From assembly GCA_003241965.1 (NCBI GenBank), contig QBMB01000001.1, forward strand, positions 231,068 through 295,067: 64,000 nt of DNA, written 5' to 3'. The position numbers and the translations under genes were made by a program. How positions within the stretch are numbered: the stretch's first letter is position 1; the number at the start of each line of letters is the position of its first letter. Origin of the DNA: Burkholderiales bacterium. Lineage in GTDB: Bacteria > Pseudomonadota > Gammaproteobacteria > Burkholderiales > Burkholderiaceae_C. This document shows, one piece after another, positions 42,145 through 54,854 of the stretch. The notes beneath the pieces were generated by a model, which saw only the letters and a program-made list of their open reading frames with translations, made no database searches and was not told the origin of the DNA.

Positions 42145-44103
42145 ATGCACATGAGTAGATTTATCACTGTCCCACTAGCCGTACTTTGGTTTGCTATCGC
42201 TGGCAAGGCCTTGCTTGCCTGGCTCTTCGGCGTTTCGATGGAGTTCCCCATCATTGGCGATCCTCCCATGGAGACCGCATTTGGAGCCGCTGCAGCTGCG
42301 ATAACGATCGGGGTTTCGATGTTGCACATCGTCACGGTATGGCTCCTGCGTCGCAACTGGCTTGGGGAGACACTATTTGTATCTTCCTACATCGGCATCA
42401 TTGGCGCCGGACTTGGCTACGGGTTCTGGTGGATGAGTGAGTCGACTGGAGTCATCGGGCATGCCTTCTTCATCGGCATGCTCTTGGTTTGTGGCCTGGT
42501 CATGGCTGGTTTCAAGTCTGGTCTGCTTTTTGCGACCGAGAGAACACGCATGCGCTCAATGGGTGCAAACCAGACTGGATCTGACGTTCAAGCTGACGTC
42601 GCGAGGGCAACCCATCCCAAAACCTCCTTCAAGGACATCTTCGGAAACTCTGATATCAAGGTTCGCCTGAAGGATGCTGCGGAGGCCATCGTCGCTCCCC
42701 GCACGGAAGGGAAGCAGATTCGCAACGGTATTCTTCTCAGTGGTGAGCCAGGAAACGGCAAGACCGTTTTTGCTGAGGCGTTGGCGGGCGAGTTGAAGCT
42801 CCCGTTCCTTCAGCTTTCGTACTCGGACGTGGCCAGCCAGTGGGTTGGCGAGAAGACCTCGCGCATCAACGCGGCGTTCGCACAGGCGCGCCGTCAACAG
42901 CCTTGTGTGCTGTTCATTGATGAGGTGGACAGCTTCTTGGAGTCACGTGACAGCGGCCGCAATGATGGAACGAAGGAAGACCGTGATGTGGTAAATGCGT
43001 TGCTCACGTTGATGGTGGACATCCGCAAGGAAAAGGTCATCCTGATTGCTGCAACCAACCACATCGATCGTTTGGACGGCGCTGGCATCCGTGAAGGTCG
43101 CTTTGACTTCAAGGTGGAGATCACGCCACCCGACCGCGAAGCACGGGTCGGGCTGCTGACACACGGCCTCAAGACTCAACTACCCACGTTCAACGTTGAT
43201 GCCGCCGTTGTAGAGGCTGTGGCGCGGCGCTGGAATGGCTTCTCGGTCAAGCGCATTCTGGCTGTAACAGAAGAACTTCCTTCCTATCTCGCCCGCGAAA
43301 CCAAGACCACGATCGCGTACGAGGACTTCATGGGCGCGCTGCGGATGCTGCAAGGTCGCAAGGGCTCAACGCCCGAGAACGTCAAGCCGATCGCTGAACT
43401 GGTGCTGTCACCCGCCACTCGCGAAATGTTGGACCTGATCGTCGGACGGATGGCTGATCCCGAGCACACAGAGAGCCACGGTGGCACGTTGCCCACAGGC
43501 GTCCTGTTCTTTGGCCCACCAGGCACTGGTAAGACCGCGACCGCCAAGGCGCTCGCCAAGGAGATCGACTGGGCATTCCTGCCTGCCACTGGCGCGGATC
43601 TGGCCCGCGACCCCAAAGCGCTGGAGAAGCTGTACGCAAAGGCGAAGGAACTCCGGCCCTGCGTCATCTTTGTGGATGAGGCCGACGAGTTGCTCAAGAG
43701 CCGCGACTATTCTCCCAACACCGAGTCGACGAACAAGCTCCTGACGCTCATGGATGGTGTCAACGACCGTGTCAAAGATGTGGTGTGGGTAGCCGCGACC
43801 AACAACCCGGAGCAGATCGACGCTGCACTCTTGCGTGGCGGGCGCTTCACCGAAAAGGTGCTGTTCGAAAGGCCATCGGCAGAAGGGTTGGCCGCTTATC
43901 TTGAGGGTTGGTTCACGTCGCGGAAAGTGGCGCTCGAATCAGGCCTCACCTCAGCATCGGTTGCAGAAATGGTGGGTAGCGAGAGCATTGCCAACGCTGA
44001 GGCGTTGGTGCAGGCCGCTCTCAACCGGGCAATCTCACGACGCTCGGCACCAGTGGTGGTGACGCGGGCCGATGTGGAGCAGGCCATGAGGATGGTTCTC
44101 TGA
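42145..44103 (+). CDS. Membrane-anchored double-ring AAA+ ATPase (Cdc48/SpoVK-like)
   Basis: About 4 N-terminal TMs; D1 GEPGNGKT/FIDEVD/REGRFD; D2 GPPGTGKT/FVDEAD/RGGRF. Confidence 0.9.
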   Translation: MHMSRFITVPLAVLWFAIAGKALLAWLFGVSMEFPIIGDPPMETAFGAAAAAITIGVSMLHIVTVWLLRRNWLGETLFVSSYIGIIGAGLGYGFWWMSESTGVIGHAFFIGMLLVCGLVMAGFKSGLLFATERTRMRSMGANQTGSDVQADVARATHPKTSFKDIFGNSDIKVRLKDAAEAIVAPRTEGKQIRNGILLSGEPGNGKTVFAEALAGELKLPFLQLSYSDVASQWVGEKTSRINAAFAQARRQQPCVLFIDEVDSFLESRDSGRNDGTKEDRDVVNALLTLMVDIRKEKVILIAATNHIDRLDGAGIREGRFDFKVEITPPDREARVGLLTHGLKTQLPTFNVDAAVVEAVARRWNGFSVKRILAVTEELPSYLARETKTTIAYEDFMGALRMLQGRKGSTPENVKPIAELVLSPATREMLDLIVGRMADPEHTESHGGTLPTGVLFFGPPGTGKTATAKALAKEIDWAFLPATGADLARDPKALEKLYAKAKELRPCVIFVDEADELLKSRDYSPNTESTNKLLTLMDGVNDRVKDVVWVAATNNPEQIDAALLRGGRFTEKVLFERPSAEGLAAYLEGWFTSRKVALESGLTSASVAEMVGSESIANAEALVQAALNRAISRRSAPVVVTRADVEQAMRMVL

Positions 44104-44702
44104 TGCTGCTTCGGGCGTGCGCTTTTGTAGTCGGCTTCCTTTGCGCATCGGCGCCGGTTTTTGGCCAGCAGGCCTCCACCTCGGCTGGGTCGTTGGGGTC
44201 GATGCCGCTGACGAACGCCACACGGTGTGTGGTCAAGGCTGCAGAGCGGCATTCGGTGAACCCGTGGGTGCTGAAGGCGATCCTCAAGGTGGAAAGCAAC
44301 TTCAAGCCAGGTGCCGTTACCCGCAACACCAACGGTTCGGTTGATCTCGGCATGGCTCAGATCAACTCCATCCATCTCAATGAACTCGCCAAGTACGGTG
44401 TCGGCGAGCAGGACTTGTTGGAGCCTTGCGTCTCGACTTATGTTGCAGCGTGGCACCTCGCCAAGCAACATCGCCGCCATGGCAACACTTGGTTCGCTGT
44501 GGGCGCTTACCACTCAGCTACGCCTTGTTTCAACACCCGGTATGTGGGATTGATCTGGAACACGCTTATCGACTGGAAGGTCGTGGAGGCACAGCGTGCC
44601 GTGGTGCAACCCTTGTCGGCGTGTCGTGCGCGTGGGAGGGCTTCACCGTCTGAGCGGCATGCAGAGGCCACACCAAATGGCCTCCTCGCGTTTGACCACT
44701 GA
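44103..44702 (+). CDS. Lytic transglycosylase (VirB1/IagB-like SLT)
   Basis: AILKVESNF (catalytic Glu), DLGMAQINS, AVGAYHS; signal peptide. Confidence 0.93.
   Translation: MLLRACAFVVGFLCASAPVFGQQASTSAGSLGSMPLTNATRCVVKAAERHSVNPWVLKAILKVESNFKPGAVTRNTNGSVDLGMAQINSIHLNELAKYGVGEQDLLEPCVSTYVAAWHLAKQHRRHGNTWFAVGAYHSATPCFNTRYVGLIWNTLIDWKVVEAQRAVVQPLSACRARGRASPSERHAEATPNGLLAFDH
44511..44702 (+). repeat. Copy 1 of the 192-bp SLT 3' end (in-frame, functional terminus)
   Basis: Encodes HSATPCF...LLAFDH*; immediately preceded by TTAC (44507-44510). Confidence 0.92.
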
Positions 44703-44706
44703 CCAC

Positions 44707-45972
44707 ATGAGCGCATCCGTGATAAAGCGAGCAGCCGTGCTGCGCCTGTACCCGAATCAACAGCAGGTATCGTCCCTGCGTCGATGGCAGGGTGGGCTGC
44801 GCTACGTCTGGAATGCGGTGCTGGACTGCGTGTTCACGTCGCGTGACATAAATGGCCGTTGGCCCACCAAGGCCGAGATGCAGGCCCTCATCGTCGGGAT
44901 GAAGAAGATGGAGGGGACCGAATGGATCGCCGACATCCCCGCGCACGCCCTGTTGACTCTGGCCGACGATCTTTACAAAGCCCTGGTCAACTGGTTCAAC
45001 AGTCTCTCGGGCAAGCGCAAAGGCCCAAAGATTTCCCGTCCCAGATTCCGAGGAAAGTTCGATCGGCAGTTCTCGGTCTACATGGTCAACCAGAACACCT
45101 CGTTCAGCGATGGCCTGGTAAGACTGCCTAAGCTCGGGCAGGTGAAGTTCCGGGCCGGCGACCTGCCTGCCGGACGCCTGTTGTCTAGTCGCGTCTACCG
45201 CGAAGCGAACAAGTGGTACATGGCCAGCATCTTCGAGTGCGATGCACCGGAGATGAATGCTGCACCCGTTGAGTGCATAGGCATCGACATGGGACTCAAG
45301 ACGTTGGCCACTGTCTTTGACGGGCAGGGCATCCGCGAGGTGCCCAAGCTGGGCGCCCTCCGCAGGCATGAGCAGAGGCTGAAGCGATACCAGCGTCGAA
45401 TGAGTCGCAGGGTCAAGGGAAGCAACCGCCGCACCAAGGCAAAGCTGGCTGTTGCACGCCTGCACCAGCGCATCGCCAACATCCGCAAGGACTACGCGCA
45501 CAAGGCCACCAGCGACATCGTAGCCAGTGCGCAGACGATCAAGGTCGAAACCCTCAACGTCAAGGGCTGGGCGAAGAACCGAAGCATTTCCAAGAGCACC
45601 GCCGACGCCAGCGTCGGGATGTTCCTGAACATGCTGCGCTACAAGGCCGCCTGGGCTGGGCGAAGCCTGGTTGAGGTTGGCCAATGGGAGCCGACCAGCA
45701 AGACCTGCAGCGACTGCGGCTCGCACAATGCAACGGTCGTTCTGGGCGTCAGTCGGTGGGTATGCCGCGCGTGCGGCGCGATCCACGACCGCGATCACAA
45801 CGCGGCAAAGAACATTTATGCGTACGGCGAGGAACGCCGAAACGTGACCGGCAACACGGTCGAAAGCGCGTGGACTGGTGGAGATCAGGCGGGAGAAATC
45901 CCGCCAGTGCCCCAGGTTGAAACGCGAATCTTGAAACGGACAGCGCGCAAGTCGAATTGCGCGCTTGCCTAA
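44707..45972 (+). CDS. tnpB: TnpB RNA-guided endonuclease (IS200/IS605 type), RuvC intact, no tnpA
   Basis: RLYPNQQQ HTH; IGIDMG (D), KVETLN (E), TSKTCSDCG...CRACG zinc finger, HDRDHNAAKNI (D). Confidence 0.95.
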   Translation: MSASVIKRAAVLRLYPNQQQVSSLRRWQGGLRYVWNAVLDCVFTSRDINGRWPTKAEMQALIVGMKKMEGTEWIADIPAHALLTLADDLYKALVNWFNSLSGKRKGPKISRPRFRGKFDRQFSVYMVNQNTSFSDGLVRLPKLGQVKFRAGDLPAGRLLSSRVYREANKWYMASIFECDAPEMNAAPVECIGIDMGLKTLATVFDGQGIREVPKLGALRRHEQRLKRYQRRMSRRVKGSNRRTKAKLAVARLHQRIANIRKDYAHKATSDIVASAQTIKVETLNVKGWAKNRSISKSTADASVGMFLNMLRYKAAWAGRSLVEVGQWEPTSKTCSDCGSHNATVVLGVSRWVCRACGAIHDRDHNAAKNIYAYGEERRNVTGNTVESAWTGGDQAGEIPPVPQVETRILKRTARKSNCALA

Positions 45973-46007
45973 AGTAAATAATTCCGCCACTCCGCCACGC
46001 CATGCTT
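45845..46007 (+). ncRNA. Putative TnpB omegaRNA scaffold plus guide (boundaries approximate)
   Basis: Hairpins GGCGGGA-GAAA-TCCCGCC (45888-45905) and AGCGCGCAA-GTCGAA-TTGCGCGCT (45942-45965) overlap the tnpB 3' end, where omegaRNAs are known to lie. Confidence 0.6.
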
Positions 46008-46179
46008 CAACACCCGGTATGTTGGGCTGGTCTGGAACACCCTCATCGACTGGAACGTGGTGCAGGCAGAGCGGGCCGTGGTGCGGCCCTTGTCGGCCTG
46101 CCGTGCGCCTGGGAAAGCCACCTCAACCGCGCGCCAAGCAACAGCCGAATCACCCAACCTCCTCGCGTTTGACCATTGA
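45988..46179 (+). pseudogene. Copy 2 of the SLT 3' end (orphan 63 codons plus stop, no start)
   Basis: Same 192-bp length and frame as copy 1; 46 of 63 aa identical by manual alignment. Confidence 0.92.
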
Positions 46180-46181
46180 AC

Positions 46182-46661
46182 ATGAACAACGACATGCAAA
46201 CCACGGGCGCGCAGCCCAGCGCCATCGGCCCGTTGCTGGCCCTGTTCGAAGCCCTTTCTGAGCAGGATCAGCGCCGCATGTATGCCGTCCTGGGTGCTAT
46301 GGTCGGCGCGGGACCCTCGCCCGCTACAGCAACGGCAGAGCCCGTCACGGCCGAAGAGGGATTGGAGGAACCCAGTGAATTGGTGGCAGTGCAGGAGTGG
46401 TACGCAGGGCTCGGGGATGTGACCGACTATGAGCGCGTATCGCTGCTCAATGAAGCCATCGACAGTGTGCAGGCAGAAGACGCAAGGGCTTTCCTTGTGG
46501 CCCGTCGCCGCGATGTCCTCGACGACAAGCCCTCTGTCTCGGTCCGTGTCGCCGTAACGCGTATCGCAGCTGAGCAGCCTATGCTCATCCTCGGAGCTGC
46601 GGTGGGTGTCTTGCTTGCTGTGGTCAGCTTCGGATCTGGGCTATTCCGCGCCTGGTTCTAG
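46182..46661 (+). CDS. Hypothetical protein with C-terminal TM helix
   Basis: ATG 2 nt after the stop of SLT copy 2. Confidence 0.75.
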   Translation: MNNDMQTTGAQPSAIGPLLALFEALSEQDQRRMYAVLGAMVGAGPSPATATAEPVTAEEGLEEPSELVAVQEWYAGLGDVTDYERVSLLNEAIDSVQAEDARAFLVARRRDVLDDKPSVSVRVAVTRIAAEQPMLILGAAVGVLLAVVSFGSGLFRAWF

Positions 46662-46680
46662 ACCTCAAACACGCTCAACC

Positions 46681-46705
46681 AAGCCAGCATCCGCTGGCTT
46701 TTTTT
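46681..46705 (+). terminator. Intrinsic terminator
   Basis: AAGCCAGC-ATCC-GCTGGCTTTTTTT. Confidence 0.8.
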
Positions 46706-46871
46706 CGCCTGTGCGTGCCGCATTCGCTGAATGAAGGCGCAAAACACGAGGCCGGCTCGCTGCACGTTCGTGTTGAGGGGTCGAGTCCGGTGTCAACGCG
46801 GGGAAGTGGCCTAGTTGACCGGGATCGATCAACGCCCTTTCTACCTAGCATTGGTTCGGAAAGGTAGCGTC

Positions 46872-51493: not shown

Positions 51494-51895
51494 ATGAACG
51501 CCAAACTTTTCACTCTCGCCTGCATGGTTGCTGCATCGGCATCCAGCCATGCCCAGGTCATCCGCGTGGTCCCGGAGGCCTTCCCGATTCAGGCAGCGCC
51601 CGCCGCAGCCTTACCGATCCGGCCGATGGAGCGTGCTCCAGCGCCCGCCGTTGACCGCGCTCTGCGGATCAAGGCAGGCGACTTGATCTCTCCCCGCATC
51701 GTGGAGTGGGCAGGACGCAATGGCTATGTCCTTTCTTGGCATGCGGGGGAATTCCGTAGCGGCGCCGACCTGGTGCTGACCGATGACTTTGAGAAGTCCT
51801 TGGACGCCTTCCTCGGCTCCATGCGCTTCAACAAGGTTCGCCTCGAAGCCGAGATCTTCGCCAACAACGCCGTTCGAATTCTGGAGGTCAAGTGA
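51494..51895 (+). CDS. TcpQ-domain protein
   Basis: Signal peptide; IVEWAGRNGYVLSW...FANNAVRI. Confidence 0.75.
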   Translation: MNAKLFTLACMVAASASSHAQVIRVVPEAFPIQAAPAAALPIRPMERAPAPAVDRALRIKAGDLISPRIVEWAGRNGYVLSWHAGEFRSGADLVLTDDFEKSLDAFLGSMRFNKVRLEAEIFANNAVRILEVK

Positions 51896-53556
51896 ATTTC
51901 ATCAAACACACCATTGCGCTGAGCGCCGTCGCCGTCCTGGCAGGTTGCTCCACAGCGACCCTTGCTCCGATCACGCAAGGCGTGAACACGGTCCAAGCCG
52001 AGAGTGACCGAGCCACGGCCGCCCTTCGCGCCGGAGAGCCCACCCAACGCGCCAAGGAAACCTCAATCCGCCGTGTTGACCAGGTGTGGATGCCGATCAG
52101 CAAGGTTGCCCAAGGCATGAACCCAGCGGCTGTGGCCTCACTCGGTCGAGAAGTTGCCGTCAACCGCCGGTTCACTGGCTTGAGCGAAGCGGCTGCGTAT
52201 CTGACCCAGATCAGCGGCGTGCCTACCAGCGTGGCTGAAGCCGCTCGCCGCGCAGGTCTTGATGCACAGAGCTCCGCAAGCAACGAAGCCACCACCGCCT
52301 TGAACGGTGCCCCAGGTGGTGCCCCCACCATGGCGCCGCCGCCCATGCCCACGCCAATGGGCATCGGTATGCCGCCGGCGACCCCAACGGCTCAGACGAC
52401 GCCTCTGGTTTACAGCGGCAAGGTCTCCGGGATGCTCGACCTGATCGCCTCACGCTTTGGCGTGAGCTGGGAGTGGGATGGCAAGGGAATCTACTTCTTC
52501 AAGACCAAGTCGCAGACCTTCCGTTTGGCAGCGTTGCCCGGCGATACCAGTCTGGCCAGCCGAGTGGGCACTCAGTCCAACAACGCCACCGGTGGCTCGC
52601 AGGGGAGTCAGGCAAGCGGTTCATCCAGCAGCGAACTGCGCGCTGGCGTGGAGTTCTCCGGTCTGAGCATCTGGAAGGGTATCGAGGACAGCATCCGCAC
52701 GATGATGAGCCCGGACGGCAAGCTGGTCGTCACCGCGTCCACCGGCACGATCACCGTCGATGACACACCGCTGGTGCTCGACCGTGTCAGCAAGTTCGTT
52801 GAAGAGCAGAACAAGGCTTTGTCGCGCCAGGTGGTGATCAACGTCCGCGTGCTGGCCGTCGATCTGTCCAAATCCCACGAATACGGGATCAACTGGGACA
52901 TGGTCTACGAAAACATCGGCCAGAGCATCGGCGTGGGCCTGAGCAACTTGGCTGAACCCGTGACTGGAGGCACCAACCTGGCGCTGCGTGTTTTGCCCGG
53001 GGCCAGTATGTTCAGCGGCTCCAGCGCTGTGATTCAGGCCTTGTCAAAGCAGGGGCGAGTGTCCCAGGTCACCTCAGCCTCGCTCGTCACCATCAACAAC
53101 CAGCCTGCGCCAATTCAAGTGGGCCGTCAGACCGCCTACCTCGCGTCCAGCACGACCACCATCGGCACGGGCGGCGCAGGCAACACGGTGACGCTGCAGC
53201 CGGGTCAAGTCACGACGGGTTTCAGCATGAACATGCTGCCCCACATCTTGGACAGCAACCGTCTGATGCTTCAGTACTCGGGCGACATCTCCACGCTGAC
53301 GCGCCTCAACACGGTGGTGTCCGGTGACTCGTCCATCCAGACGCCTGAAATCGACACTCGAAACTTCATGCAGCGAACGTTCCTCAACAGCGGGGAAACG
53401 CTGGTGGTGACAGGTTTCGAGCAGTTCGTTCTCAACGGGGACACACAAGGCATAGGAAGCCCTGAAAACCTTGCTCTGGGCGGCCGTCTGACGGCCAAGG
53501 ACACGAAGACGGTCCTGGTCGTCCTGATTCAACCCGTCGTGTCGGGCAACCTCTGA
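51892..53556 (+). CDS. pilN: Type IVb pilus lipoprotein secretin PilN/BfpB
   Basis: Lipobox LAGC; QVVINVRVL, ALSKQGRVS, TINNQPAPIQVG, LNSGETLVVTG. Confidence 0.92.
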   Translation: MNFIKHTIALSAVAVLAGCSTATLAPITQGVNTVQAESDRATAALRAGEPTQRAKETSIRRVDQVWMPISKVAQGMNPAAVASLGREVAVNRRFTGLSEAAAYLTQISGVPTSVAEAARRAGLDAQSSASNEATTALNGAPGGAPTMAPPPMPTPMGIGMPPATPTAQTTPLVYSGKVSGMLDLIASRFGVSWEWDGKGIYFFKTKSQTFRLAALPGDTSLASRVGTQSNNATGGSQGSQASGSSSSELRAGVEFSGLSIWKGIEDSIRTMMSPDGKLVVTASTGTITVDDTPLVLDRVSKFVEEQNKALSRQVVINVRVLAVDLSKSHEYGINWDMVYENIGQSIGVGLSNLAEPVTGGTNLALRVLPGASMFSGSSAVIQALSKQGRVSQVTSASLVTINNQPAPIQVGRQTAYLASSTTTIGTGGAGNTVTLQPGQVTTGFSMNMLPHILDSNRLMLQYSGDISTLTRLNTVVSGDSSIQTPEIDTRNFMQRTFLNSGETLVVTGFEQFVLNGDTQGIGSPENLALGGRLTAKDTKTVLVVLIQPVVSGNL

Positions 53557-54854
53557 TGTCCAAGCCGGAGATCGTCGCCATCGGCGGCGCCCAGCTCGTC
53601 GTAGGGCTGATGTGGCAACCCCTCTCGGGGTCAAACACGGGCGAGCGACAAGCCGAAGTCAAGGGCTTCGGCAAGGAACTCGACCTCAACCTGCAGGTGA
53701 TGCACCGGGAGAACCTGTGCGTCGGCCTGGCTAAGGGAAACGCCGGCATCAAGGCCGGAGCGGTATCGCTTGCCGCAGCAATGTCCGACAAGCTCCACGC
53801 TTTGCACGGCGCACGGGACTTCATCCTCGTCGTCGAGCTTGAAGGCGGGCAGTGGTACTACCTCGCCCAAAAGGATGGGGTGATCTTTCCCGATGGGGAC
53901 CAGCTGTACACCTCTGAGGATCTTGCGAAAAGCAGGTTCTTCGAGGACTCAAGCCTCGCAGACTGGGGTCAGATCGTTGTCCCTTCGCATTGGGGCGTGT
54001 CGGGTTCGCTTGACGTTCCTGAGATTGAGGACGTTCTGCCATTCAAGGGCAAGGGCAAAGCAAAACTGAATGCCCCCAAACAGTGGAAGCTGACGGCCAT
54101 CAGCGTCAGCCCAGCCCAGTTTGTCCGTGAGCACGCAACCTCTTTGGTGATCATCGTTGCCGCTATCGGCACCATCGTGATCGGAATGGACCAGCTCAAG
54201 GCTTGGCAGCAACAGAAAGCAATTGCCGAGGCAGCTCGTGTGGCCGCAGAACTGGCCGCGATGCAGGAAAAGGAACTCCCTCGGCCGCGTCCTTGGGGTG
54301 AGATTCCTCACGCATCGGATCTGATGCGCGCCTGCATGCGCACGGTGGGCAGCGTGCATCTTTTCCCGGGCAACTGGGACTTGCTGGGCGTGCACTGCGG
54401 CGGTGGGGTGATGACCGTTTCGTGGAAGCCGCGCCCATACGGCTGGATCGAGCACTTGAAGCAAGTTGTTCCTGATGTGGTGATCGCCACAGATGGAAGC
54501 CTCGCTTCGACCACAAAGCCGTTGCCGCAGTTGCGTACTCCCACCGACGAAGACGTGTTCACGGCAAATGAACGCATGGTGGCCATGTACGCGGCGGCAC
54601 AGCGGTACGGCGTCAAGTTCACGGCAACCCCACCGGTGACCAACACAGTTCAGGCGCTACCCGGTCAGGGCGCTGCGCCAGGCCAAGAGCAGCTGTGGGA
54701 AGAAATGGGCTGGAAGGCTGAAGGCATCACCTTGCCCGAAGTCGTGATCCAGGCCTTGGATGGCAACGGCTTCCGTCTCAGCGCGATGAACGCGCAGTGG
54801 CGTGACGGTCAATTCGTATGGACGATGGAAGGATCTCAATATGTTCGCAAGTGA
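53556..54854 (+). CDS. pilO: Type IVb pilus accessory protein PilO
   Basis: LVVGLMWQPL N-terminus, central TM, PWGEIP; position after pilN. Confidence 0.82.
   Translation: MSKPEIVAIGGAQLVVGLMWQPLSGSNTGERQAEVKGFGKELDLNLQVMHRENLCVGLAKGNAGIKAGAVSLAAAMSDKLHALHGARDFILVVELEGGQWYYLAQKDGVIFPDGDQLYTSEDLAKSRFFEDSSLADWGQIVVPSHWGVSGSLDVPEIEDVLPFKGKGKAKLNAPKQWKLTAISVSPAQFVREHATSLVIIVAAIGTIVIGMDQLKAWQQQKAIAEAARVAAELAAMQEKELPRPRPWGEIPHASDLMRACMRTVGSVHLFPGNWDLLGVHCGGGVMTVSWKPRPYGWIEHLKQVVPDVVIATDGSLASTTKPLPQLRTPTDEDVFTANERMVAMYAAAQRYGVKFTATPPVTNTVQALPGQGAAPGQEQLWEEMGWKAEGITLPEVVIQALDGNGFRLSAMNAQWRDGQFVWTMEGSQYVRK

What the first reader, a model, noticed from the sequence alone, without database searches (positions are those of the whole stretch)
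44507..46179. Candidate RNA-guided homing element with a recoded rescue: tnpB between two diverged copies of the SLT gene end
Seen: the architecture is SLT 5' part-TTAC|copy 1 (44511-44702)-CCAC-tnpB-omegaRNA-like hairpins-|copy 2 (45988-46179). Both copies are exactly 192 bp, begin at the same His codon and share 46 of 63 aa, so this is not a target-site duplication. The first 20 nt differ only at synonymous third positions (CACTCAGCTACGCCTTGTTT versus CACTCCGCCACGCCATGCTT; mismatches at 6, 9, 15, 18). There is no tnpA and no room for a left-end hairpin. Established: TnpB takes its guide from the DNA just 3' of the element and cuts TAM plus guide; TTAC is a known IS605-family target motif; the RuvC D/E/D residues are intact here. 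Inference: the guide (copy 2) would cut uninvaded SLT alleles at TTAC|CACTCCGCC. The occupied allele is immune because copy 1 has the TAM but seed mismatches and copy 2 has the match but no TAM. The conjugation gene stays functional. This is a natural, transposase-free gene drive or plasmid-competition weapon aimed at a conserved transfer gene.
Basis: partly seen in the sequence, partly recalled or inferred. Interest (0 to 1): 0.92.

Follow-up and report, generated by a model that had tools for sequence, protein, structure and literature searches.

The report
Stranded TnpB nuclease inside conjugation operon
A transposase-less remnant of an IS1595-type insertion sequence that carries the RNA-guided nuclease TnpB sits in a plasmid transfer operon between a recombination-patched, full-length lytic transglycosylase gene and the leftover end of the original gene, so its guide should match related plasmids whose gene is still uninterrupted. 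The layout is real and unusual, but the 'gene drive with a recoded rescue' reading is only partly supported.

Summary
A 196-nt direct repeat (44510-44705 and 45987-46182, 77% identical) flanks an intact tnpB (44707-45972).

The element is not IS605-like. Relatives show a DDE insertion sequence of the IS1595 family: terminal inverted repeats, a DDE_Tnp_IS1595 transposase whose stop overlaps the tnpB start, tnpB, a conserved structured RNA ending exactly at the right repeat (window 45986), and 8-bp target duplications. Six of seven insertion sites have TA just 5' of the duplication, so the motif is xTA, not TTAC.

The window copy has lost its left repeat and its transposase. Copy 2 is the resident gene's 3' end: it differs by 1 of 189 nt from an empty allele, L027. 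The predicted guide matches that allele perfectly, behind GTA.

Copy 1 is not a discrete recoded cassette. A divergent tract starts about 138 nt upstream of it, near 44373, and its divergence (dS 0.75, omega 0.22) equals that of ordinary alleles.

Best reading: an insertion into the SLT gene, then a recombinational patch from another allele. This leaves a TnpB and guide aimed at uninterrupted rival alleles, while the host's own gene carries seed mismatches. Cleavage and homing are inferred, and TnpB plasmid drives are already published.

Novelty: a new variant of a known kind. Interest 0.6.

The parts
44103..44702 (+). Full-length VirB1-like lytic transglycosylase (SLT) gene, 199 aa. It is a mosaic: 44103-44372 is resident-type and 44373-44699 is a divergent patch.
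   Evidence: Pfam SLT. Against L027, dS is 0.13 for nt 1-270, but pS is 0.76 for nt 271-408 and 0.50 for nt 409-597.
44373..44699 (+). Divergent SLT tract brought in from another, unsampled allele. It spans the non-duplicated 44373-44509 and copy 1.
   Evidence: Sliding identity falls from 93-97% to 70-84% against L024-L027. The best database match of its C-terminal 63 aa is about 80%. Omega is 0.22.
44505..44509 (+). GCTTA, an xTA motif lying 5' of the guide-like sequence of copy 1.
   Evidence: Six of seven independent insertion sites of this IS have TA immediately 5' of the 8-bp duplication.
44510..44705 (+). Copy 1 of the 196-nt direct repeat. This is the 3' end of the functional SLT ORF.
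   Evidence: the repeat finder D1. Mismatches to the guide at positions 7, 10, 16 and 19.
44700..44706 (+). TGACCAC, the last remnant of the IS upstream of tnpB. It corresponds to the end of the lost transposase gene and doubles as the SLT stop codon, so it marks the illegitimate junction.
   Evidence: Full copies read TTGACCGCATGA at the transposase-stop/tnpB-start overlap. Similarity to them begins at 44700.
44707..45972 (+). tnpB, 421 aa, with an intact RuvC triad and zinc finger.
   Evidence: Up to 88% aa identity to copies inside full IS1595-type elements.
45790..45986 (+). omegaRNA-like scaffold. It overlaps the tnpB 3' end and runs to the element's end. The right terminal inverted repeat is about 45969-45986.
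   Evidence: Nearly invariant across 13 loci; the consensus fold has 52 pairs, 14 of them with compensatory changes. Single-sequence fold z-score is -3.7. The inverted repeat pairs with the left repeat of full copies.
45987..46006 (+). Predicted guide, taken from the flank. The first 8 nt (CCACTCCG) are the right copy of the target-site duplication.
   Evidence: All related loci diverge from this base on. The sequence is 100% identical to empty alleles L027 and L024, where it follows GTA. It has no other match in the host genome at up to 3 mismatches.
45987..46182 (+). Copy 2, the untranslated 3' remnant of the resident SLT gene. It runs into the start codon of the next gene.
   Evidence: Differs from L027 by 1 of 189 nt. 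Its translation is 100% identical to the C-termini of P0123 and P0126.
46182..46661 (+). Conserved 159-aa gene of unknown function that follows SLT in every empty allele.
   Evidence: Same gene order in L024-L027 and in the two Hydrogenophaga plasmids. No Pfam hit.

Best explanation
What it is. This is a 5'-truncated copy of an IS1595-family (DDE) insertion sequence. Full copies of this family carry a TnpB nuclease and its guide-RNA scaffold at their right end.

History (inferred from the anatomy).
- The full element inserted into the resident VirB1-like SLT gene of a Hydrogenophaga conjugative megaplasmid or ICE. It landed after GTA at codon 136 and duplicated CCACTCCG.
- Its right end is still joined to the resident gene's 3' remnant, which is copy 2.
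- Later, recombination with a diverged SLT allele replaced everything from about 44373 through the left inverted repeat and the transposase gene.
- One crossover was homologous, inside SLT. The other was an illegitimate joint at the SLT stop codon, TGA, which is also the TGA of the element's TTGACC(G/A)CATG leader.
- The result is a full-length SLT ORF and a tnpB placed 4 nt behind its stop. No cognate transposase was found in the genome.

How it most likely works (inferred).
- tnpB is co-transcribed and translationally coupled with the transfer operon.
- The 3' part of the transcript gives an omegaRNA whose guide is the first 16-20 nt of copy 2.
- The complex would cut related plasmids that carry the uninterrupted resident-type SLT allele (GTA followed by CCACTCCGCCACGCC...).
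- The host locus would be spared. Copy 1 has the motif but mismatches at guide positions 7 and 10. Copy 2 matches but is preceded by the element's own end.
- The outcome would be exclusion or loss of rival plasmids. With RecA repair from this locus, the rival allele would instead be converted. This combines transposon 'non-restorative homing' with intronless homing.
For: Shown by tools.
- Element type: terminal inverted repeats, a DDE_Tnp_IS1595 plus zinc-ribbon transposase overlapping the tnpB start, and 8-bp target duplications at six sites. A full copy also sits in a complete chromosome of the same genus.
- Right end: defined to the base by 14 loci.
- Scaffold: conserved, with compensatory pairs.
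- Site motif: TA lies 5' of the duplication in six of seven sites, against a TA dinucleotide frequency of 1.25% in the window (P about 3e-11).
- Empty alleles: present with the gene order AAA, SLT, 159-aa gene, VirB8.
- Backbone: copy 2 and the 3.7 kb behind it are 97% identical to L024 and L027; copy 2 itself differs by 1 of 189 nt.
- Patch: divergence begins near 44373, upstream of the repeat. It has dS 0.75 and omega 0.22, like L025 against L027.
- Left junction: only TGACCAC ahead of the ATG is IS-derived.
- Nuclease: TnpB is intact.
- Host genome: a single tnpB, one scaffold copy, no IS1595 transposase found, and no second guide match.
- Operon: no promoter-like or terminator-like site on the + strand between SLT and the next gene.
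- Other transposase-less but intact tnpB copies exist: L018 and L023, L019, L031, L204.
- A contig about 91% identical in an independent freshwater run crosses the same SLT-stop/tnpB-start junction.

Established knowledge.
- TnpB uses the flank of the transposon end as its guide and needs a 5' motif.
- TnpB drives insertion sequences through plasmid populations and protects conjugative plasmids.
- DDE-associated TnpB branches with inverted terminal repeats are described.
Against: - No RNA data, so the omegaRNA's ends and its expression are unknown.
- The motif could be a transposase preference rather than a TAM.
- Tolerance of mismatches at positions 7 and 10 is inferred from ISDra2, not measured for this clade.
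- The architecture is seen in one strain (three near-identical assemblies) plus fragmentary contigs of one relative.
- In that relative the full SLT looks like another allele type, and the contigs are not proven to be linked.
- No perfect target was found in the 130 other species-representative genomes of the genus. Targets are known only from metagenome contigs.
- The order of events cannot be resolved. Two IS copies recombining would give the same picture as insertion followed by a patch.
Confidence: 0.6

Rival explanations
1. This is an evolved, transposase-free IS605-type homing element. Its left boundary is TTAC, and it carries a purpose-recoded rescue copy of the gene end as part of the mobile unit (44511-45987).
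For: - The guide lies at copy 2, and copy 1 has seed mismatches and an adjacent motif.
- A full-length SLT is kept.
- The concept is mechanistically coherent with published TnpB drives.
Against: - The family features of IS200/IS605 are not met. Relatives have a DDE transposase, terminal inverted repeats and 8-bp duplications.
- The site motif is xTA, one base out of register with TTAC.
- The divergent tract starts 138 nt upstream of TTAC, so there is no unit boundary there.
- The divergence is that of a natural allele.
- No flank duplication was found at the four related loci checked.
Confidence: 0.08
2. Inert relic. A dead insertion sequence lost its transposase in a rearrangement between mosaic plasmids. 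The duplication is a neutral by-product, and TnpB and its RNA are silent or without consequence.
For: - These plasmids are heavily mosaic even away from tnpB.
- 5'-truncated copies are common.
- There is one lineage only, with no cognate transposase.
- No target was found in the genomes searched.
Against: - tnpB is intact, with its catalytic triad and zinc finger, although it is only 85-90% identical in DNA to any sampled full copy.
- The scaffold and right end are perfectly conserved.
- The junction keeps both ORFs and an operon-compatible 4-nt spacing.
- A relative with about 96% identity over the tnpB fragments covered, and no gaps there, crosses the same junction in another study.
- Copy 2 shows no decay.
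Confidence: 0.27
3. A different origin with the same outcome. Two related plasmids each carried the IS at different places: one inside SLT, the other just behind a diverged SLT. Homologous recombination within the IS joined them and duplicated the segment between the two sites.
For: - This is the classic route to IS-flanked duplications.
- This IS landed repeatedly in T4SS operons of this plasmid type: L018, L188, and the +33 junction in run X8.
- tnpB's nearest relatives differ between its 5' and 3' parts.
Against: - A second insertion behind SLT should have left a left inverted repeat and a transposase, or at least a target-site motif. Only 7 nt of IS sequence precede the ATG.
- No sharp identity break is seen inside tnpB.
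Confidence: 0.05

Closest known systems
IS605 TnpB acting as a gene drive and anti-plasmid defence in plasmids (Mears et al., bioRxiv 10.1101/2025.02.20.638934)
   Same: - An RNA-guided nuclease sits on a plasmid-borne insertion sequence, and its flank-derived guide matches the uninterrupted allele of sister or rival plasmids.
- TnpB-bearing ISs are enriched next to transfer genes.
- Spread does not depend on the transposase.
   Different: - The carrier here is a truncated IS1595-type DDE element, not IS605.
- The interrupted gene has been restored by a diverged allele, so the host pays no gene-loss cost.
- Nothing here has been tested experimentally.
DDE-transposase-associated TnpB branches with inverted terminal repeats (Altae-Tran et al. 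2023, PMC10691335)
   Same: - TnpB sits inside a DDE element with symmetrical ends.
- The tnpB 3' end lies within 250 bp of the transposon end.
- Solo TnpBs are flanked by the same ends.
   Different: - The families named in the texts I could read are IS630, ISL2 and IS1031.
- No paper in the library links TnpB functionally with IS1595 or ISXO2. Whether this clade is one of their six DDE branches could not be checked, because the supplement is not held.
Intronless homing by free-standing homing endonucleases of T-even phages (SegF, SegB; as reviewed in PMC13565253)
   Same: - A nuclease gene lies beside a conserved gene.
- Self and target are told apart by sequence substitutions in that gene.
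- Repair co-converts flanking markers.
   Different: - Recognition here would be RNA-guided, and set by a leftover gene fragment rather than by protein specificity.
- Homing is not demonstrated.
Engineered cleave-and-rescue or home-and-rescue gene drives (e.g. ClvR, PMC7951863)
   Same: A nuclease aimed at a wild-type gene is tightly linked to a cleavage-resistant functional copy of that gene.
   Different: - The resistant copy here is a natural diverged allele acquired by recombination, not a designed recoding.
- The target, a VirB1-like transglycosylase, is probably not essential.
ISDra2 TnpB (PDB 8EXA, 8H1J)
   Same: - Full-length homology (E about 1e-65).
- Same catalytic triad and zinc finger.
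- An RNA scaffold overlaps the gene's 3' end.
   Different: - About 35-40% identity only.
- A different transposon type, and so a different relation between the target-site duplication, the motif and the guide. Here the first 8 nt of the guide are the duplicated target.

Membership tests
TnpB (OMEGA RNA-guided nuclease) | OrfB_IS605 (RuvC), zinc-ribbon TNB and N-terminal HTH domains, with full-length homology to characterised TnpB | tested here: met
   Pfam E-values of 1.2e-28, 5.1e-23 and 5e-07. ISDra2 TnpB matched at E 2.6e-65 over residues 7-371.
TnpB (OMEGA RNA-guided nuclease) | Intact RuvC D-E-D triad | tested here: met
   D194, E281 and D363 align with D191, E278 and D361 of ISDra2.
TnpB (OMEGA RNA-guided nuclease) | Conserved structured RNA that overlaps the gene's 3' end and stops at the transposon end, followed by a variable flank that serves as guide | tested here: met
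   Thirteen loci are nearly invariant, with 14 compensatory pairs. Flanks diverge from the base after ...TTCCG in 14 loci. The RNA itself was not observed.
TnpB (OMEGA RNA-guided nuclease) | Motif-dependent, guide-dependent DNA cleavage | not testable with these tools
   Only the sequence prerequisites were checked.
Full relatives have a DDE_Tnp_IS1595 transposase, terminal inverted repeats and 8-bp duplications.
IS1595 family insertion sequence | Transposase with an N-terminal zinc ribbon and the DDE_Tnp_IS1595 (ISXO2-like) domain | tested here: not met
   Met in relatives (L037: E 4.2e-28 and 3.9e-12). Not found in the window or elsewhere in the host genome. The window holds a truncated derivative, not a complete member.
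IS1595 family insertion sequence | Terminal inverted repeats and an 8-bp target-site duplication | tested here: inconclusive
   The window has the right repeat (about 45969-45986) and the right copy of the duplication only. Both repeats and both duplications are present in L021, L029, L030, L037 and L188.
Homing element or gene drive | The nuclease's target is the allele that lacks the element, and the occupied allele is resistant | tested here: met
   Met at sequence level only. The guide is 100% identical to L027 and L024 behind GTA. Copy 1 mismatches at positions 7, 10, 16 and 19, and copy 2 lacks the motif.
Homing element or gene drive | The same insertion is found in several distinct backbones with co-converted flanks, as evidence of spread | tested here: inconclusive
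   L106, L107 and run X4 are the same sequence. Run X8 holds a relative about 91% identical that crosses the left junction, but only as short unlinked contigs.
Cleave-and-rescue type arrangement | A discrete, recoded, cleavage-resistant copy of the target that belongs to the element | tested here: not met
   The divergent tract has no boundary at the repeat; it starts near 44373. Its dS and omega equal natural allele divergence.

The most novel reading that the evidence does not exclude
The arrangement may be a persistent, selected module rather than an accident: a transposase-less TnpB and omegaRNA that rides conjugative plasmids as a natural cleave-and-rescue or intronless-homing device. Three observations fit this reading.
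- The leftover gene fragment programmes the nuclease against wild-type alleles of a transfer gene, while a diverged allele supplies the function.
- The module can be re-aimed by shifting the right junction to the next GTA. Run X8 holds a junction 33 nt further in.
- It may leave nuclease scars in target populations. The allele P0133 has an in-frame 27-nt deletion that removes the motif plus the first 17 nt of the target.
Probability: 0.2. Interest if true: 0.85.

Novelty: new variant of a known kind. Interest (0 to 1): 0.6.

Why it matters
- TnpB was recently shown in the laboratory to drive insertion sequences through plasmid populations and to protect conjugative plasmids. Natural examples where the guide, the target allele and the resistant self-allele can all be read from sequence are rare.
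- This locus offers such a case. The guide's target exists as a real, co-occurring empty allele. The interrupted transfer gene has been restored by a mismatched allele. The nuclease has outlived its transposase.
- It also documents a TnpB carried by an IS1595-type DDE element. There the 8-bp target duplication forms the start of the guide, and a TA-ending motif precedes it. That is a different solution to the guide-and-motif problem from IS605 or IS607.
- If cleavage is confirmed, it gives a compact nuclease with a short TA-type motif and a simple natural model for plasmid-plasmid conflict.

Tried and rejected
- Rfam scan of 44000-46800 at E up to 1: no family.
- PLSDB plasmids: no TnpB above 60% identity and no scaffold match.
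- GTDB species representatives: the best TnpB match is 39% in the collection scan.
- Same-genus genomes: only one held the element, as a full IS at an unrelated site. None was found in 400 genomes of the family.
- Junction pattern GACCAYTGACCRCATGAG in IMG/VR: two hits. The one inspected (L198) is a chance match inside a phage gene; the other (L199) was not examined.
- Flank duplications at four other tnpB loci (L018, L019, L021, L023): none found.
- P0122, the closest relative of the divergent tract: an ordinary empty allele, and its DNA was not delivered.
- DNA of the deletion allele P0133: not found in the genus genomes.
- Guide-plus-TA pattern in 131 genomes of the genus: only chance-level hits at 3 mismatches.
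- Supplement of PMC10691335: not held, so I could not check whether this clade equals one of its DDE branches.
- Hypermutation or in-situ divergence of copy 1: rejected. The substitutions are biased to the third codon position, and they extend into non-duplicated sequence.
- A nuclease-dead regulator of the TldR type: rejected because the RuvC triad is intact.
Full report
**1. The observation**

The region holds a 199-aa SLT-domain gene (44103-44702), then 4 nt, then a 421-aa tnpB (44707-45972). Behind tnpB lies a second copy of the SLT 3' end.

- The repeat finder reports one direct repeat of 196 nt, 44510-44705 and 45987-46182, 77% identical.
- The encoded 63 residues are 73% identical.
- The ATG of tnpB is at 44707; a reference starting at 44708 translated out of frame, with 16 stops.
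- TnpB aligns over its whole length with ISDra2 TnpB (E about 1e-65). It has D194, E281 and D363 at the catalytic positions, and both CxxC pairs.
Only the boundary shifts, by one base.

**2. What kind of element it is**

Protein searches found TnpBs 82-88% identical in metagenomes. I fetched their loci.

- Their 3' regions are almost invariant up to ...CTAAAGTAAATAATTCCG, and diverge completely from the next base in 14 loci. In the window that last base is 45986, so the flank begins at 45987, the first base of copy 2.
- Upstream of tnpB, most relatives carry a roughly 310-aa gene with Zn_ribbon_IS1595 and DDE_Tnp_IS1595 domains. Its stop overlaps the tnpB start (TTGACCGCATGA).
- Upstream of that gene lies a left end, CGGnnCTATTTACTTTAGACAAG. 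It is the inverted complement of the right end.
- Eight-base target duplications flank the element in L021, L029, L030/L033, L037/L189 and L188, and 7 of 8 bases match in L018.
- This is an IS1595-family DDE insertion sequence with TnpB as a passenger. It is not an IS200/IS605 element.
- A full copy also lies in a complete chromosome of the same genus. The 88% cluster includes Hydrogenophaga taeniospiralis proteins.
- The 3' 200 nt fold into a conserved structure with 14 compensatory pairs. That fits an omegaRNA scaffold ending at the right inverted repeat.
- The first 8 nt of any guide would then be the duplicated target.
- Immediately 5' of the duplication, six of seven independent sites read TA (ATA, GTA, GTA, ATA, TTA, GTA; one reads GTG). 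The TA dinucleotide frequency in the window is 1.25%.
- I cannot tell whether this is the transposase's preference, a TAM, or both.

**3. The window's copy is truncated**

- Only TGACCAC (44700-44706) ahead of the ATG resembles the element. The left repeat and the transposase are gone.
- The host genome (99.97% complete, 177 contigs) has one tnpB, one scaffold copy, no hit to the cognate transposase and no hit to Pfam PF12762.
- Other transposase-less copies exist. L018 and L023 keep the left repeat. L019 and L031 keep 35-65 nt of the transposase gene. L204 is fused directly behind a phage peptidase gene.

**4. Empty alleles and the mosaic**

- Close relatives of the SLT protein (79-85% identity) lie in the same operon order without tnpB: AAA ATPase, SLT, 159-aa gene, VirB8, VirB9, VirB10. 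This holds in L025, L026 and L027, and in two Hydrogenophaga megaplasmids at about 72% DNA identity.
- From 45987 onward the window is 97% identical to L024 and L027 over 3.7 kb.
- Copy 2 differs from L027 by 1 of 189 nt, and its translation equals the C-terminus of several natural proteins.
- The predicted guide is identical to L027 and L024, where it follows GCGTA.
- Copy 2 is therefore the resident gene's own end, and the right junction is a normal transposition junction.
- On the left, the SLT gene is resident-type for its first 270 nt (dS 0.13 against L027). It then switches abruptly to a tract that diverges from every known allele: pS is 0.76 in 44373-44510 and 0.50 in copy 1.
- The switch lies 138 nt upstream of the repeat, so copy 1 has no boundary of its own.
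- Copy 1 against copy 2 gives dS 0.75, dN 0.17 and omega 0.22. The natural pair L025 and L027 gives dS 0.61 and omega 0.20 over the same codons.
- The tail of copy 1 (…SERHA…NGLLAFDH) resembles that of natural alleles such as P0122 and P0128. P0122 sits in an ordinary empty locus.
- The 'synonymous recoding' of the first 20 nt is thus what any diverged orthologue shows in this conserved peptide. L025 and L026 also differ from L027 at three positions there.

**5. Most likely history and mechanism**

Shown:
- an IS1595-type right end joined to a resident SLT remnant;
- a foreign SLT patch from about 44373 to the stop;
- an illegitimate joint at TGA.

Inferred history:
- The full element inserted after GTA at codon 136.
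- Recombination with a diverged allele then replaced the left half of the insertion. One crossover was homologous, in SLT. The other used microhomology at the stop codon.
- This restored SLT and stranded tnpB.
- An alternative is recombination between two IS copies at different sites. It is less likely, because no left-end sequence remains.

Inferred mechanism:
- tnpB is expressed with the operon. No promoter-like site, and no + strand terminator-like site, was found before the one at 46681. The 4-nt spacing suggests translational coupling.
- Its RNA carries the copy 2 guide.
- Related plasmids with an intact resident-type allele would be cut, while the host locus is spared. Copy 1 mismatches at positions 7, 10, 16 and 19. 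Copy 2 is preceded by TTCCG.
- No other match to the guide exists in the host genome.

**6. Is it more than a one-off?**

- Three assemblies from other runs are the same sequence, with 0-1 differences.
- Laying contigs of an independent freshwater run (X8) gave a 1631-nt contig about 91% identical. It is colinear from the AAA gene across the whole SLT gene and the SLT-stop/tnpB-start joint into tnpB.
- Another X8 contig joins the element's right end to the SLT remnant 33 nt further in, directly after ...CCCGGTA.
- The X8 tnpB fragments are about 96% identical to the window. That is closer than any full IS copy, which reach 85-90%.
- This suggests that the fused, transposase-less form has persisted and diversified, and that the SLT 3' region has been hit at two GTA sites.
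- The X8 contigs have different depths (6.3, 3.2 and 4.7), so their linkage is unproven.
- The SLT in X8 looks L025-like where I could read it, so I treat this as a lead only.
- One resident-type SLT protein (P0133) lacks nine residues. On the L027 sequence this corresponds to a single 27-nt deletion covering the motif and the first 17 nt of the target.

**7. Comparison with what is known**

- TnpB's use of the flank as guide, and restorative homing, are established.
- A preprint shows that TnpB drives IS605 through plasmid populations without its transposase and gives conjugative plasmids an advantage in invasion and defence. It also reports that such ISs cluster near transfer genes.
- DDE-associated TnpB branches with inverted terminal repeats, and solo copies, have been catalogued. 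The families named in the texts I could read are IS630, ISL2 and IS1031.
- I found no paper that links TnpB functionally with IS1595 or ISXO2.
- What is different here is the configuration. A stranded TnpB is programmed by a leftover gene fragment, and it sits next to a functional, mismatched allele of the same gene.
- Functionally this resembles intronless homing of phage endonucleases and engineered cleave-and-rescue drives. Here, however, the 'rescue' is a natural allele patch rather than a recoded cassette.

**8. Verdict**

The guide logic and self-immunity hold at sequence level. The family, the motif, the element boundaries and the 'recoded rescue' claim do not.
- Novelty: a new variant of a known kind.
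- Interest 0.6. About 0.2 probability that it is a selected, re-targetable natural cleave-and-rescue module, which would be of high interest.

**9. Context**

The window carries a complete transfer region, followed by type IV pilus genes:
- TraI_2 relaxase
- coupling protein
- DUF4400 protein
- VirB11
- VirB4
- VirB6
- AAA ATPase
- SLT
- VirB8, VirB9 and VirB10
- TcpQ

The nearest records are 320-340 kb Hydrogenophaga megaplasmids.

Noticed in passing
L024:1894-3487 (sister plasmid; corresponds to window 44094/44095): A second, unrelated TnpB-like gene (492 aa; only the TNB domain hits Pfam). It lies in a 1594-nt insertion with an 8-bp duplication, CGGATGAT, exactly at the AAA-stop/SLT-start junction. 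The host plasmid's AAA gene is 99-100% identical to the window's. The flanks on both sides of this insertion are unusually diverged from the window (68-76% in 100-nt windows).
   Followed up: partly
Protein P0133 (NCBI WGS LNFM01); corresponds to window-equivalent target site 45977-46003: A resident-type SLT allele with an in-frame 9-residue gap (…NTWFAG-FNTRY…). On the L027 sequence this equals one 27-nt deletion that removes the GTA motif and the first 17 nt of the predicted guide target. It may be a nuclease or excision scar. The DNA could not be fetched.
   Followed up: partly
Run X8 contigs laid on window 43892-46429: An independent freshwater metagenome holds a relative about 91% identical. 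One contig crosses the same SLT-stop/tnpB-start joint. Another joins the IS right end to the SLT remnant 33 nt further in, after ...CCCGGTA. Contig depths differ, so linkage is unproven.
   Followed up: partly
L204:2591-4280 (IMG/VR phage contig with a P22-like portal gene): A transposase-less tnpB (88% aa) is fused directly behind a complete Peptidase_M15_3 gene, whose stop overlaps the tnpB ATG. The contig ends exactly at the IS right end. A repeat there could explain the assembly break.
   Followed up: partly
L018:3958-5277 and L188:2029-4280: The same IS clade sits in other T4SS operons. In L018, a left-repeat/tnpB/right-repeat form lies between the DUF4400 and VirB11 genes of the same operon type as the window. 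In L188, a full IS lies 75 nt upstream of another SLT gene, on the opposite strand, next to VirB8.
   Followed up: partly
window 42145-44103: A 652-aa protein with two AAA ATPase domains is embedded between VirB6 and the SLT gene. It is conserved at this position in all relatives. Its N-terminal 450 nt are poorly conserved among plasmids (40-66% against L025-L027), while being 97-100% identical to L024.
   Followed up: no
window 42195-44372 compared with L024-L027: There is strong patchwork mosaicism independent of tnpB. Tracts 99-100% identical to L024 switch to 74% within 200 nt around 43800-44100, while L027 becomes the closer relative. This points to frequent recombination among these plasmids.
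   Followed up: partly
window 46182-46661: A 159-aa gene without any Pfam hit always follows SLT in this T4SS type, 2-3 nt after its stop. In the window it is preceded by the untranslated copy 2, so any translational coupling to SLT is lost.
   Followed up: no
window 51892-54854: Type IV pilus genes (a secretin and a PilO-like gene) lie directly behind the T4SS genes.
   Followed up: no
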